A stretch of 64,000 bases of DNA from the NCBI GenBank assembly GCA_963842945.1, contig CAWJIM010000024.1, positions 32,001 through 96,000 of the forward strand. The letters run 5' to 3'. This DNA comes from an uncultured Gemmatimonadales bacterium. Lineage in GTDB: Bacteria; Gemmatimonadota; Gemmatimonadetes; Gemmatimonadales; GWC2-71-9. Shown here piece after piece: positions 30,001 to 36,000 of this stretch. The position numbers were made by a program. Position 1 is the stretch's first letter, and each line of letters opens with the position of its first letter.

Positions 30001-33000
30001 ACCATCATCGCCAGCAGCGCGGTTTGCGCCTGAGTTCCATTGATGAAGGCAATGCCCTCTTTGGGGGCGAAGCGGTAGGGCGAAAGCCGGGCGGCCTTCA
30101 AGGCAGCACCGGCGGGCGCTGGCGCCCCCTGCTCGGCGAGCACTTGGCCTTCGCCCATCAGTGCGAGCCCGATGTGACTCAGCGGTGCCAGGTCTCCGCT
30201 GGCTCCGACGCTGCCCTGCTCGGGAACCATCGGAACTACCCCGGCATTGAGCAGGGCTACCAGAGCGTCCAGCAGCTCGGGACGCACGCCGCTGGTCGGC
30301 CGCAGCAGCACGTTCGCGCGGAGCAGCATCACCGCCCGCACCACAGGTACCGGCAGCGGAGTCCCGACCCCGGAGGCGTGACTGCGGATGAGATTGGTCT
30401 GGAGTTGGTCGAGCTGGTCGGCGGGAACCCTGACGTTCGCCAGCTTCCCGAATCCGGTGTTGATCCCGTAGATCGTTTGCCCAGATTGAACCGCCCGCTC
30501 CACCAGCTGCCGGCTTTGGGATAAAGCGCTTCGTGCAGACGGGTCGACCGAGACGCGACTGGCAGGGTTACGGGCTATGTGAACCACGTTCTCGATGGTG
30601 AGCGAGCGGCCGTCAAGAACGCAGTCGATGCGAGCCATCGCCCGAAGTTGACGCCGTCCCGCTTCCGATTCAACCCCCGAGCCCAGCCGACCGCGTCAGC
30701 GTGTGGCCCTGTTCCGTACCACGAGGAGCTCGGCGTTCCCTGGATCGGTTTGGAAGGCCCAATCCAGAATCATGAAGTTCCGCCCGACATGGGTCACCCG
30801 GAGTGCACCGTATCGGAGAAACTGATCGCCGGCCTCCATCTCGAAGACGTAACCCATGCCCGGGGCCGCTTCGATTGGGGTGGTGGCATATCTGCCGCAC
30901 GAGCTGGGATCTGGAGCACTAAGACAGGGCGCGTCATCGATGCTGGTCAGGTCGCCCACCGGATCCTCGGAATAGAACTCCACCCCGGTGCCGGCTCGCG
31001 TCGGCGTCATGAACAACCGGCCCGAGGTGTCACGGTCGACGTAGAAGTCGACATCGCTGGAGGCGCCACTCCGCACCCGGCCCAGCTCACCCTCCTCGAC
31101 TACGTTGTCGCCATCGTCGTCCCAGAACCGAAAGCCGCTGCTGTCTGATTTCACCTGGATAGGATAGAGAACCTGATTGCGGCTGTCCGGCCTTGGAGTA
31201 TCGAACACGGTCCTCGAGCGGTCGCTCTCCGCACCGTTCTGGCCGGCGGAGCTGACCGAGAAGCAACGGGATACTCCGTTCACCATCGCCCCCACCAAGA
31301 ACTCCGGCGCCACCGTGGTACCCTCGAGAGTCCAGGTGGTCCCGCACGGTTCGGTCCCCGCCGGGGCGTCAATGTCGTAGGTGGTGCTGTAGATCCGGTA
31401 GCTCTGAAAATTGTCGGGATCGGATTCATATGCATTGTCGGGCCAGGTGAGCGCTACCGCCCCATTCAGCGTAGTGCTGAAGAGATCAGCCGGCACATCC
31501 GGGGGGTTGCTGGGACTGGTTTGGTCGGACGAACAAGCCATGACCAGCAGGAGGATGACCGGCAGATGCCAGCCTTGCATACAGGGCTCCGGAGAGGGAT
31601 AGCGAGACCCACGGCAGATCGCGTGCCACTGCCAGAGTTCCGGAGTGGAGCGGAGTTAGCAGGCACCCGGCAGCGCAATGTGGTTCGAGTGTCCTCGCCG
31701 GAGGACAGTTATTCGTCGAAGGTGGTCTGGTTGTAGTCGAACTTCAGGTCCGGCAGGTCGGTCAGATAAATGGAGAAGTAAAACGCGAAGTTGCCGTTGG
31801 CGTTCCGCACGAAGTTGAAGCCGGCCCGCCACTCGTGCAGCTGCCGCTCCAACCGGACCACCTGAGATTCGAACTCGGTGTCGGTGATGTTGTACTGCGA
31901 CGACCAGGAGAGGGACCAGAAGGGTGTGGGGGAGAAGCTGGTACTGAAACCCAGGTTTTGCTGACCGGGCGTACTGGGCAGTCCGGGCACCGGCCGGGAG
32001 CGTGACAGGGTGTAGTTGAAGTTGGCCGTGAACTCCCGGCCGCCGCCATGGAAGGGAACCCGCCCGCTGTTGTAGAACGAACGGTTCCGCCGACCGGCAT
32101 CGACCACGTACGAGGAGGGCACGTTTTCCCGCCGACCCGAAGATCCCTTACCCAGGCCGAAAATCGATCCGATTGAGCGGAGGGTATTTCCGGAGATCGC
32201 AAAGCTGGCGCTGACGTTGCTCAGGAAGAGATCGAACTTGGACGTATCCACGCCCACCGGGCCGCGCCAGAGGTCGTGGGTGAAGCTCAGGGTAAACTGC
32301 GGCAGCAAGTCACTGAGCAACGAATTGGTAATCGATGGTGTCGTCCAGCCCGTCCGTCCCGGCTTCTTGGCCTGCTCGAAATCATAGCTGATAGGGCTGG
32401 TGTTGATGCTCAGCACGCGAAACTTGGCGCGCTTCGGCGCCAGAGGTGTCGCCCGGGGCCCGCTTGGCCTTGGCCTCGAAGGTCTGCGAGAGGCCGAGGC
32501 TCATGGTTTGAGTGGCGTCGCTTCGCAGCTGAAGCGGCTGTCCCGGGGTGACGAGAGCCTGGGCATATTCCAGCGGTACGGACGCCCCGGGCGAAAAATT
32601 CCAGCTCAAACTGGGCGACAGGCTGTGTCTGATGCGGCTGGCAAATCCGAAGCCGGGCAGAAAGGCAAACAGCGTCGGCGAAGCGGTAGCCGAGAACCGA
32701 AAGCGCTTTCCCTGGTGAACGAAGTCGCCATTGGTGTTGCGATTTCTGAGCAAGAAAGGACCCGATGTCGTATTCGCGACGCCCACCGCCGGCTGCACCT
32801 TCCAGGAGCCGCGAAACAGCACCGGCAGATTGATGCCGGTATTCCAATCCACTCCGGTGGAGAAGTTGCCGTTGAAGATGCGGGTGACGGTAACCGAGTC
32901 TGTGGGATCCGGGGTAGTAGGATCGTCGATTCGTAATACGACGCTGTCCCGGCCGGTGCTTCGCTGATCGACGGCCTGAAACGAGTTCTGCCAGTTGAAG

Positions 33001-36000
33001 TTTCCGAGTTGCACCGGCGTCTGAAAATCCAGCGAGGAGGTTCGCCGTCCCCCCACCTGCGCCACCGTGTCCAGAATGTTCCCCGGCAGAACCGTCAGCA
33101 GCGAGTCCAGCGGAGTCTTGGACTCGGTGTTGTTGGTGAAGCTGAACCCGGGCGACCAGGTGATGTGGGATCCGATGGCGATCGAGGCCGGGGAGATGGT
33201 TACCGCGGGCAGCAGTTGCTGTACGCTGCCATCGGAGAGACTCTGCCGGCGATTGCCACCGATGGTCAGAGTTCCCCATCCATAGCGCTTGGAAAAGTTG
33301 AGCGAGCTGGTGATCTGCTGGGTATTGAGCAGCGGATCCACCGCATTCCGGTTGATGATCGAGGTGTTGGTCGCGTAATTGAGGTCGAGGTTCAGGCTGG
33401 TGGACAAGTCGAAAGTCTGCCGGTGATCCCAGCGCACCGTGGCGGACGACCCACCCTCTGTCTCCAGCTGCCTGCTGAAGGCCACCGCCCCGTCAACGAA
33501 CCGGTTGATCCAGTGGTACTGCCCGGCTATGCCATACTGCAGGTACCGGTTCGAATACCAATCGAGCCGGGCCGTCAGATCGATGTAATCGTTGGGGGCC
33601 CAGTAATACCCGATGTTCGCGATTTGCCGATTGTATCCGGGATTGGTCCGCACCAGGTCATTAAAGCCGAATTGCGGAATGAGAATGCCCGAGTGCCGTC
33701 CGGGGCGCATGTCCTGAAAGAGGAAGGGCAGCCAGAGCACCGGCACGTCCCGAACGTAGAGGACGACCGGTCGAGCGACCAGCACGTTCTGAGAGACCCA
33801 CTTTACCTCCCGGCCGGCAAAGTGATAATGCGCCACCGGAAGGTCGCAGCTGGTAATCTCGCTGGACGCGGCGTAAATCCGACTCGAGCTGGAGTCCTGG
33901 GAGACGTTGCCCCGGAGAAACCAGACGCTGCCGGCCTCGGTGAAGTTCGTCAGGGCATCCGTGATCACGCCACGCCGGGTGCACGTATCGTAACGTATCC
34001 CCTCGCCCACCATGACCTGTCCCCGGTCGAACAGCTTGGGGTCGCCCGTGGCATCCAGCACACAGCTGGAACGCCGGTACGTGATGCTGCCGGCCTCGAG
34101 TGAGGTTCCCCGTCGTTCGGTCAACGCCTGCCCGTTCAGCAGTACCCGCTGATCCTGGACAAACACCGTGGCGGAATCTGCCCGGTACCGGGTGCTTTGG
34201 TAGCCGGGACGAGCCAGCAGCTCGCTGATCACCGAATCCGGAGTTACAAAGCTGCGAGTAGGCGCCGTGGGCAGACCCAGGCGGCGGGCGGCTGCCGAGT
34301 CCAGAGTTTGTCCCGGCCGCGCTCGGGTCGAATCAGCCAGCGTCGTATCGCGACGCGCCGGCGGAGGGCGGCGCTGCTGGGCCGGCACCTGCGCTTCGGC
34401 CCGCGCACCCAGCAGTGCCAGCAGGAGAAACACGCCCGCGGTTCTACCCGCGAGCGACTCCCGTTCCGCCTTGCGCCGACGGCGCTGCAGAATGAGGGAG
34501 CCGGCAAATCCCACCTCATACAGCACCATAAGAGGCAGCGTCATCATCGTCATGGAAAGCACGTCAGTCCCGGGAGACAGCACCGCTCCGGCGAAAAAGG
34601 CGAGCACGACGGCGTAGCGGCGGAACCGGTTCAGCTCCGCCGGTCCAATGACGCCGAGCCACGACAGGATGATGATGACAAGCGGCAGCTCGAAGGACAG
34701 TCCGAGTGCCAACGTGATCTGCAGGACAAAGCTGAAGTACGCGTCGTAGGTGATGAACGGAGCGATCGCTTCGCTCTGGAAGCTGAACAACACGCGGAGT
34801 GCCTGAGGCACCACGAAGCGGTAGGCCAGGCCGCCACCCGTCAAAAACAGCACCAGCCCCACGAAGAGTGAAGGAACCAGGGCGCGCTTCTCCCGCTGGT
34901 ACAGGGCGGGAGCCAGGAAGGCCCAGGTTTGCCACAGGATGATCGGGGAGGCGAGAACCAGGCCAACCAGCAGCCCCAGCTTGAGCACGATCATCACCGG
35001 CTCAGTGGGGCTGGTGACAACCAGCTTGCCTCCGGTGAGATAGGGCGCGATCGGTTCTTTCAGGACGCTGACCAGCTGAAAGCGCTGGACCAACCACAGC
35101 CCCAACCCGCACCCCACCACCACGGCGGCCAGCGAACGGAGGATTCTGTGTCGCAATTCCTCGAGGTGATCGAGGAACGGCATTTCTCCGGCAGGACCCG
35201 TCATGGGGGGAGACGCCCGGGCTACCGCCCGAGCGCCTTCAGTCGATCACGAGCCAGGGCCGCTTCATCGGACTGAGGATACCGCTGGACCACTCGCTGA
35301 TACGCGTCCCTGGCCTTCTTGGTGTCCTTCCTCCGCTCGGCCAGCAGGCCCAGGTTGTACAGGGCCGAGCTCGCCCGGGAGGAGGTGGGATACTTCTGCA
35401 TCACCTGCTCGTAGTACGCAGCCGCCGAATCCGGGTTCTCCGCCGCGAAGCTTTGCCCAATGAAGTAGAGGGCGTCTCCGGCTCGCTCACTAGTGGGATA
35501 GACCCGAAGCATCTCCCGCAGCCCGAGGCGGGCAGTGGAGGTGCTGCCTCGCCGGAGCTGTGCCAGCGACGCTTCGTACATCTGGTCGGCCGAAGCCGCC
35601 GAGCTGGCCCCAGGCCGGGTAGTATCGCCTGGGGTGACAGTAGCCAGCTGTTCGCCCCTGGCCTCGAGCTGGGTGCGCAGCTCGCTCAGACGCTGCTGGC
35701 TCTGGCCGGTAAGCTCCTGTAATTGCACCAACTGCTGTTGAATGTTGTACAGGTCACTGGCCAGGTCGCCGCGCAGCTGGCCGACCGCTCGACGGCTGGA
35801 GGTGAGTGAATCCATCATGCGCTGCTGTATCCGGATCAACTCGTTCAACTGTGCCGCCCGAACCGAGTCCCGCCGAGCCGTCTCCGCCTTGAACAGGGCC
35901 ACATCGTCTTGCACCTGCTGGACGTCGCCCTTGGACGCGCAACCGGCGAGAAGCCAGATCAGCGAAACGCCCAGCCGGACCGTCAGCCCCACAGAACCCG

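What a model noticed while it worked through the whole genome (the two positions that open the first line are those of the whole stretch)
31709..35204. TatC fused to the LptD-like outer-membrane barrel through a conserved internal signal peptide
The genome's only tatC is one reading frame with its only LptD-type (LptD_2) outer-membrane barrel gene, and between them lies a conserved Sec-type signal peptide (RRRR, hydrophobic core, AEA|QVP); the gene closes a tolQ-tolR-tonB-tolB-pal-ybgF-like gene row. Boldest reading: TatC and LptD are made as a polyprotein that signal peptidase splits in the membrane, or stay one chain bridging both membranes, coupling the Tat translocon to LPS/outer-membrane assembly. 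New would be an inner-membrane translocase and an outer-membrane barrel encoded as one precursor, and a Tat-Lpt link conserved across a phylum.
Evidence so far: g04304 (940 aa): Pfam TatC 12-224 (E 4.5e-61) + LptD_2 476-921 (E 2.4e-32). Six-frame search of the genome: TatC PF00902 1 match (this gene; rings in 11 of 14 control genomes), canonical LptD PF04453 0 matches (rings in E. coli and Caulobacter); no other TatC/LptD row in pfam.tsv. 1250 database proteins at E<=1e-3 among 8000 scored; all 120 listed carry PF00902+PF19838, most 1155-1176 aa, named only 'TatC'. Search with the 360-aa junction in 150 other Gemmatimonadota genomes: 148 with a match; in the own family most matches span residues 1/2-359/360 in one stop-free frame of ~1125-1390 aa, in other families and classes the tatC end and lptD_2 start are two matches a few tens of bases apart o [...]
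(Added by a program. Inside this text positions count along the whole contig: contig position 32,001 is position 1 of the stretch shown here. "Call 12" and the like, gene names such as g00115 and contig names such as C1 are that model's own, and its searches are not shown. The text may have been shortened before it was handed on; [...] marks where a part breaks off. The agent that wrote the report below was given it as the finding of a first reader that could run no searches.)

Follow-up and report, generated by a model that had tools for sequence, protein, structure and literature searches.

The report
TatC-LptD polyprotein with internal signal peptide
In this bacterium and most of its family, an inner-membrane protein exporter (TatC) and the outer-membrane lipopolysaccharide inserter (LptD) are encoded as one chain, joined by LptD's old export signal, which the cell most likely cuts to release two ordinary proteins.

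Summary
The fusion is real. One frame (35204-32385, minus strand) holds TatC and an LptD-fold barrel. The later break is one extra base near 32426, absent from 12 of 12 same-genus loci. In the own family, 83 of 92 genomes are fused; outside it, 3 of 96 (90 split and adjacent, often with a 4-base overlap), so the fusion is not phylum-wide. The RRRR is TatC's ordinary tail; the hydrophobic stretch and AxA|Q are LptD's former signal peptide. Small-x-small-Gln is kept in 85 of 86 fused junctions although the junction has diverged (28% identity). The genome's other exported proteins mostly start with Gln, and it encodes a glutaminyl-cyclase-like lipoprotein, an enzyme type that acts only on a freed N-terminus. 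This supports cleavage by signal peptidase I. The fusion arose at least four times and was undone about six times, which argues against a required Tat-Lpt bridge. Cleavage is inferred, not shown; no signal-peptide predictor was run. No paper on it turned up in four searches. The scan found this before on other DNA (11 notes).

The parts
34485..35204 (-). TatC domain (residues 1-240), six helices, conserved H13, E16, F96, E105, E172, D214
   Evidence: Pfam/NCBIfam; model of the G019 orthologue; conservation counts
34392..34484 (-). Internal signal peptide (residues 241-271): TatC's basic tail RRRRK as n-region, h-region 257-266, c-region ending A-E-A
   Evidence: cleavage inferred
34389..34391 (-). 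Gln272, predicted first residue of mature LptD and predicted pyroglutamate site
   Evidence: Gln in 75 of 76 rows of alignment A1; genome-wide +1 Gln bias
32428..34388 (-). Mature LptD, first part: about 30 disordered residues, beta-taco (LptA-like) domain, most of the barrel
   Evidence: model and fold search of the G019 orthologue
32426..32427 (.). One extra base that shifts the frame in this assembly; probably an assembly error
   Evidence: 12 of 12 aligned same-genus loci lack it; the listed contig pieces of four runs neither confirmed nor excluded it
31709..32425 (-). [quoted passage not shown]
   Evidence: continuous with the upstream part in full-length relatives
35222..39754 (-). Upstream tol-pal row: tolQ, tolR, tolA/tonB-like, tolB, pal, cpoB/ybgF
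24936..25190 (-). tatA, the only TatA/B-family gene found in the genome
   Evidence: (G000:C24:57044-57181 = window 25044-25181)

Best explanation
tatC and lptD, ancestrally two genes overlapping by four bases, were joined into one frame near the base of this Gemmatimonadales family. The product is a polyprotein. Shown: one frame, an intact TatC, an LptD fold, and a conserved signal-peptide-like joint. Inferred steps: (1) the ribosome inserts TatC's six helices through Sec, ending in the cytoplasm; (2) TatC's arginine tail plus LptD's old hydrophobic stretch act as a seventh, N-in/C-out segment that restarts export; (3) signal peptidase I cuts after Ala271; (4) a lipoprotein glutaminyl cyclase caps Gln272 as pyroglutamate; (5) LptD goes on to BAM and LptE as usual; (6) TatC stays in the inner membrane with a stub of about 31 residues, tolerated or trimmed, and works with the single TatA. 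The fusion is probably a tolerated, near-neutral accident, easy to make and easy to undo.
For: Junction: small-x-small-Gln after the h-region in 85 of 86 fused loci (1000 shuffles of the same stretches: mean 23.7, max 43) and in 61 of 66 free LptD signal peptides. In the independent MAFFT alignment, Gln272 is in 75 of 76 rows and Ala/Gly/Ser at -1 in 76 of 76, while mean pairwise identity is 0.28 in the junction and 0.16 just after it. In G000, 56% of predicted +1 residues among 122 signal-peptide-like proteins are Gln, against 3.5% background and 9% at +3. A type II glutaminyl-cyclase-like lipoprotein is encoded (PDB 6QRO, E 5e-51) and is found in 40 of 41 other published family genomes searched. 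One SPase I gene is present. 38 of 86 junctions have no ATG/GTG/TTG between TM6 and the h-region, and only 13 have one with a Shine-Dalgarno-like 4-mer. Split relatives overlap by 4 bases in 38 of 93, one small indel from fusion. On the trees, fusion appears at least 4 times and loss about 6 times; the G047-type fusion recurs in two further proteins, P0010 and P0017. The model gives the joint (250-302) no confident structure.
Against: No cleavage or expression data: the RNA runs hold only short pieces and none of the listed RNA pieces covers the junction. The signal-peptide and Q-rule counts use my own heuristics, not SignalP, and the 122 proteins include false positives. The 83 fused genomes are kin, so the counts overstate independence. 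83 of 92 family genomes keep the fusion, and the post-signal linker varies less in fused genes (SD 6.6) than in split ones (SD 16.3); this could mean mild selection, though kinship explains it equally. The cyclase activity is inferred from homology, and three of the eight PDB hits are named aminopeptidase or peptidase only. The root of the family is unresolved against G069 in the IQ-TREE run, so the family fusion may be two events.
Confidence: 0.83

Rival explanations
1. The chain stays uncut: TatC in the inner membrane tethers LptD in the outer membrane, making a trans-envelope link between Tat and Lpt.
For: Topology allows it. The gene follows the trans-envelope tol-pal row, and the fusion is kept in 83 of 92 family genomes.
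Against: A canonical cleavage site with +1 Gln is kept in 85 of 86, where an uncut anchor would be free to lose it. The flexible linker is only 18-49 residues (median 32), short for a periplasm otherwise spanned by LptC and LptA (inference). The linker is no longer than in split genes. The fusion was lost about six times. The model gives the joint no confident structure.
Confidence: 0.05
2. LptD is mainly made from an internal start codon in or after TatC helix 6, and the long product is a minor read-through form.
For: 48 of 86 junctions have some ATG/GTG/TTG near the basic tail. A start-type codon 11 codons before the YE motif is present in 82 of 86.
Against: That conserved Met never has a Shine-Dalgarno-like 4-mer (0 of 82) and also occurs in stand-alone TatCs. 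38 of 86 have no start codon at the junction, including this genome. With no stop codon, every ribosome that makes TatC also makes LptD, so the precursor must be handled anyway.
Confidence: 0.06
3. The polyprotein is cut, but the fusion is actively selected: it fixes TatC:LptD at 1:1, or forces co-translational export of the large, slow-folding LptD. This shares the cleavage mechanism with the best explanation and differs only on why the fusion persists.
For: Repeated origins, long persistence, and loss of LptD's own n-region and start codon in many lineages.
Against: The ancestral 4-base overlap already couples translation. Once the start codon has gone, reversal is simply hard (a ratchet). 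When a foreign stand-alone tatC was acquired, the fused tatC was deleted three times.
Confidence: 0.2
4. The fusion is an assembly or gene-calling artefact.
For: This assembly has other frameshifts, including one in this gene.
Against: 83 genomes of many genera carry it in one stop-free frame with different junction sequences, as do 19 database proteins.
Confidence: 0.01

Closest known systems
Separate, overlapping tatC and lptD (LptD_2) genes of other Gemmatimonadota
   Same: Same two proteins, same order, same basic TatC tail, same signal peptide ending in AxA|Q.
   Different: Here the stop and start codons are gone and TatC's tail serves as the signal's n-region.
Bradyrhizobium japonicum cytochrome b/c1 polyprotein FbcH (Thony-Meyer, James, Hennecke 1991, PNAS 88:5001, PMID 1647023; only the reference-list entry was seen; name and mechanism recalled)
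   Same: One bacterial gene gives two proteins; as recalled, a polytopic membrane protein is followed by an internal signal peptide that is cut during export.
   Different: FbcH joins two subunits of one inner-membrane complex. Here the halves belong to unrelated machines in different membranes, and cleavage is not yet shown.
Bacteroidota LptD (bioRxiv 10.64898/2026.10.03.756453; passages read)
   Same: LptD_2 rings in Bacteroides thetaiotaomicron among 14 controls. The paper describes a beta-taco plus barrel with LptE, as modelled here.
   Different: Not fused: the paper has no occurrence of TatC or Gemmatimon- in its main text. It reports 27 strands, extra subunits and surface-lipoprotein export; none of these was tested here.
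Bacteroidetes Q-rule with the lipoprotein glutaminyl cyclase PgQC (PMC5837995, PMC10653852; passages read)
   Same: Gln at +1 of SPase I substrates and a lipoprotein type II cyclase.
   Different: Those papers do not mention Gemmatimonadota. Here the rule is predicted to apply at an internal site.

Membership tests
TatC | Family profile over its curated cut-off | tested here: met
   PF00902 204.8 vs 25.1 bits; TIGR00945 204.8 vs 132.7
TatC | Six transmembrane helices and conserved signal-binding and functional residues | tested here: met
   Confident helical domain 9-249 in the model. H13, E16, F96, E105 in 76 of 76, E172 in 69, D214 in 71. Their equivalence to E. coli H12, E15, F94, E103, E170, D211 is recalled.
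TatC | Transport of folded twin-arginine substrates with TatA | not testable with these tools
   One TatA gene and two twin-arginine-like N-termini under a strict pattern are present; no assay
LptD | N-terminal beta-taco plus large kidney-shaped barrel | tested here: met
   Model pLDDT 87.8; the 15 best Foldseek hits are all LptD, best E 7.6e-25, TM about 0.5; profile hits LptD 7OMM E 2.8e-17 and LptA
LptD | Proteobacterial LptD equivalog cut-off | tested here: not met
   NF003358 20.8 vs 944 bits; it belongs to LptD_2 (PF19838) instead
LptD | 26 barrel strands (27 in Bacteroidota) | tested here: inconclusive
   The DSSP list suggests about 26-28 strands; coordinates were not inspected
LptD | Partners LptE and LptF/G in the genome, and no other LptD candidate | tested here: met
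LptD | LPS insertion activity | not testable with these tools
   no assay
Sec/SPase I signal peptide | Basic n-region, hydrophobic h-region, small residues at -3 and -1 | tested here: met
   (own heuristic plus alignment columns; SignalP not available)
Tat (twin-arginine) signal peptide | RRxF(L) consensus | tested here: not met
   0 of 86 fused junctions
FbcH-like bacterial polyprotein | One open frame encoding two proteins with an internal signal peptide between them | tested here: met
FbcH-like bacterial polyprotein | Demonstrated processing into two proteins | not testable with these tools
   needs proteomics or a reporter assay

The most novel reading that the evidence does not exclude
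Cleavage is slow, partial or regulated, so that newly exported LptD stays tethered to TatC at the inner membrane until it engages BAM or the Lpt bridge; or the retained seventh helix becomes a working part of a TatA-TatC translocase that has no TatB. Either would physically couple the Tat translocase to outer-membrane biogenesis, beside the tol-pal genes.
Probability: 0.08. Interest if true: 0.85.

Novelty: new variant of a known kind. Interest (0 to 1): 0.55.

Why it matters
Bacterial polyproteins cut by signal peptidase are rarely described, and I found no report of one that yields an inner-membrane translocase and an outer-membrane barrel (searches; the library lacks most subscription journals). 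It would show that TatC tolerates a seventh membrane segment, and that LptD can be exported from the tail of a polytopic membrane protein. It gives a natural series of fusions, re-splits and replacements for studying how gene fusions are fixed or undone. It also has a practical cost: the four fused database proteins with a TatC-type name are called just TatC, so LptD can look missing in a common soil family.

Tried and rejected
Reads: no public run held more than 17% of the stretch's words. Four runs of contigs gave only short pieces; 20 of 32 pieces were listed, no indel was reported, and none of the listed RNA pieces covers the junction. This is no evidence on the frameshift, expression or habitat.

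The 'open frame' column of the genome search reads through stops: G079, G123, G132 and G080 looked fused but are split in frame.

A twin-arginine reading of RRRR was rejected (0 of 86). A TatB-substitute role for helix 7 was considered; its predicted orientation is opposite to that of TatA/B helices (recalled), its sequence is not conserved and the model does not place it.

A scan of G000 for other internal signal peptides after two or more membrane helices gave four rows: two are this gene, one is an MFS frameshift artefact, and one (C19) was not followed up.

A type I glutaminyl cyclase search gave only a weak hit (E 7e-5) on a repeat protein with a lipoprotein-like start; rejected.

A search with a distant TatC among longer proteins gave 46 hits; the 19 with LptD_2 all have their best match in families f1 or f2, so no fusion from another phylum was seen, but this is weak evidence.

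The FbcH paper did not come up in the library. No complex prediction was run, since no binding is claimed. Twelve of the 201 genomes were not fetched (contig ends, unlisted places or unpublished).
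Full report
Observation. The minus-strand ORF 35204-32382 encodes 940 aa with Pfam TatC at 12-224 and LptD_2 at 476-921; the TatC part passes the TIGR00945 cut-off. 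It is the only match in the genome for the whole protein and for PF19838. The genome is 87% complete. Upstream on the same strand lie tolQ, tolR, a tolA/tonB-like gene, tolB, pal and cpoB; downstream lie a lipoprotein-like ORF and an aromatic amino acid lyase. The break in the barrel is one extra base at about 32426-32427, after Arg926. Of 14 same-genus loci given, 12 align there and all 12 keep the frame. Other genes of this assembly are also frameshifted, so an assembly error is likely, but the laid runs could not settle it.

Distribution. I searched 201 genomes of the phylum (that tally includes four unpublished genomes, on which no claim rests) and fetched 190 loci from 189 of them. Classified by stop-to-stop frame, and leaving out the unpublished G057, the own family f1 has 83 fused of 92 genomes, 4 split and adjacent, 4 with lptD but no tatC beside it, and 1 cut by a contig end. 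Outside f1, 3 of 96 loci are fused (G047, G091, G180), 90 are split and adjacent, and 3 have only one gene in the locus. All 76 named loci closest to the fused protein are uncultured genomes, 74 of them titled within Gemmatimonadota, mostly Gemmatimonadales. So the adjacency is phylum-wide and the fusion is not.

What the junction is. In split relatives the nearest start codon overlaps the tatC stop by four bases in 38 of 93, and lies within -11 to +6 in 66 (starts picked by a nearest-codon rule). Their LptD has its own signal peptide ending in AxA|Q, and their TatC ends in a basic tail (91 of 93). The fused junction is these two pieces joined, often with LptD's own n-region and start codon gone, as in HRRRRQAAITALILLGLGLAASPMQA|Q (L008). 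A small-x-small-Gln motif follows the hydrophobic stretch in 85 of 86 fused loci, against a mean of 23.7 and a maximum of 43 in 1000 shuffles, and in 61 of 66 free signal peptides. In the MAFFT alignment of 76 full-length fusions, position -1 is Ala, Gly or Ser in all 76 and +1 is Gln in 75, while mean pairwise identity is 0.55 in TatC, 0.28 in the junction and 0.16 in the next 28 residues. No junction has a twin-arginine consensus (0 of 86). These genomes are kin, so the counts are not independent events; the point is that the motif outlasted the divergence around it.

Why the Gln matters. In Bacteroidetes, most signal peptidase I substrates expose a Gln that a lipoprotein glutaminyl cyclase turns into pyroglutamate (PMC5837995 and PMC10653852, passages read; neither mentions Gemmatimonadota). 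With a heuristic blind to +1, 56% of predicted +1 residues among 122 signal-peptide-like proteins of G000 are Gln, against 3.5% background and 9% at +3 (the set includes false positives). G000:C19:107756-108676 encodes a lipoprotein matching Bacteroidetes cyclases (6QRO, E 5e-51). It is found in 41 of 42 other f1 genomes searched, 40 of 41 without G057. The cyclase needs a free N-terminus, so a Gln held constant at the head of a disordered, variable segment is best explained if the chain is cut there (inference). One signal peptidase I gene is present.

Internal start. 38 of 86 fused loci, this genome included, have no ATG, GTG or TTG between helix 6 and the hydrophobic stretch; 13 have one with a Shine-Dalgarno-like 4-mer. 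The conserved Met in helix 6 never has one. Independent translation of LptD is therefore unlikely as a rule.

The two halves. TatC keeps its conserved residues. TatC is described with six transmembrane helices (PMC13186574, passages); with both ends in the cytoplasm (recalled), a seventh segment would run inside to outside, as a signal peptide does. One TatA-family gene is found, in this window. The mature LptD of the nearest relative folds with pLDDT 87.8, and its 15 best structural matches are LptD (best E 7.6e-25, TM about 0.5). LptE and LptF/G are encoded. The proteobacterial LptD cut-off is not met, and most C-termini are not aromatic. Bacteroidota LptD, where LptD_2 also rings, is a working translocon with 27 strands (bioRxiv 10.64898/2026.10.03.756453, passages; its supplementary table of FCB homologues was not seen and may list this phylum). 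The full-length model (pLDDT 80.1, pTM 0.64) has both domains confident and residues 250-302 under 50. The disordered stretch after the Gln is 18-49 residues, similar to split genes (6-58).

History. A FastTree tree of 181 LptD sequences and an IQ-TREE quick tree of 36 of them (10 changes of state) nest G112, G048+G001 and G148 (split again, each with a four-base overlap) among fused relatives, and likewise G066+G172, G033 and G025 (tatC gone from the locus). Those last four genomes each have one stand-alone tatC elsewhere. These, and a second tatC in the still-fused G045, group together inside family f2 on a FastTree tree, which suggests a foreign copy arrived and the fused one was then deleted. 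G047, G091 and G180 each sit among split relatives, and the G047-type join recurs in proteins P0010 and P0017. The minimum reading is four fusions and six losses. The direction assumes the split state is ancestral, as all outgroups show. Monophyly of f1 against G069 has support 0.998 but is open.

Mechanism and rivals. The best reading (0.83) is a polyprotein cut by signal peptidase I after Ala271, giving a TatC with a short stub and a pyroglutamate-capped LptD. An uncut bridge (0.05) is disfavoured by the kept cleavage site, the short linker and repeated loss. An internal start (0.06) is disfavoured by the codon counts. Whether the fusion is selected (about 0.2) or merely tolerated is open.

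Known and new. One gene giving two proteins is known from B. japonicum cytochrome b/c1 (Thony-Meyer 1991; title seen in a reference list; content recalled). Searches for TatC/LptD/fusion/Gemmatimonad-, bacterial polyproteins with internal signal peptides and natural TatC fusions listed no paper on this arrangement; I saw only listings and abstract starts for most. Earlier notes of this scan reached the same reading in other genomes and noted the Q-rule in this phylum; I had both readings before looking and tested them here. Verdict: a real new variant of a known kind, interest 0.55.

Noticed in passing
G000:C19:107756-108676 (-), and genome-wide: Bacteroidetes-like Q-rule in a Gemmatimonadota genome: 56% +1 Gln and a type II glutaminyl-cyclase-like lipoprotein about 6 kb from lptF/G; homologues in 87 of 101 genomes searched (tally includes unpublished G057 and G097), not found in family f6 (0 of 5).
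   Followed up: partly
P0023 (cluster of 7, with four 766-aa members): A different natural TatC fusion: apolipoprotein N-acyltransferase Lnt (PF20154, PF00795) joined in front of TatC, in several assemblies; lineage not determined.
   Followed up: no
L138 (G045), L192-L195 (G066, G172, G033, G025): A stand-alone tatC of family-f2 type, apparently acquired horizontally, sits at unrelated loci; G045 has both it and the fused copy.
   Followed up: partly
window 24936-25190 (-): The only TatA/B-family gene found, so the system looks like a minimal TatA-TatC without TatB (genome 87% complete).
   Followed up: partly
window 40958-42351 (-), 26454-28948 (-); G000:C21:316021-318378 (-); G000:C19:114931-116367 (+): Further apparently frameshifted genes (LysM protein, TPR-like protein, MFS-like transporter, lptF), consistent with indel errors in this assembly.
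   Followed up: partly
G000:C1:141623-142000 and G000:C15:5743-6123: Two LptE matches with the same frame length (168 aa); a duplicate or contamination (6%).
   Followed up: no
window 31709-31740 (-) and alignment A2: The LptD C-terminus is usually not aromatic (R 61, P 30, Q 24 of 138), unlike the usual BAM signal (recalled); the strand count may be odd, as in Bacteroidota LptD.
   Followed up: no
window 30696-31580 (-): A 294-aa lipoprotein-like ORF with no Pfam or NCBIfam match directly follows lptD, and similar ORFs follow it in some relatives; a candidate accessory subunit of the LPS translocon.
   Followed up: no
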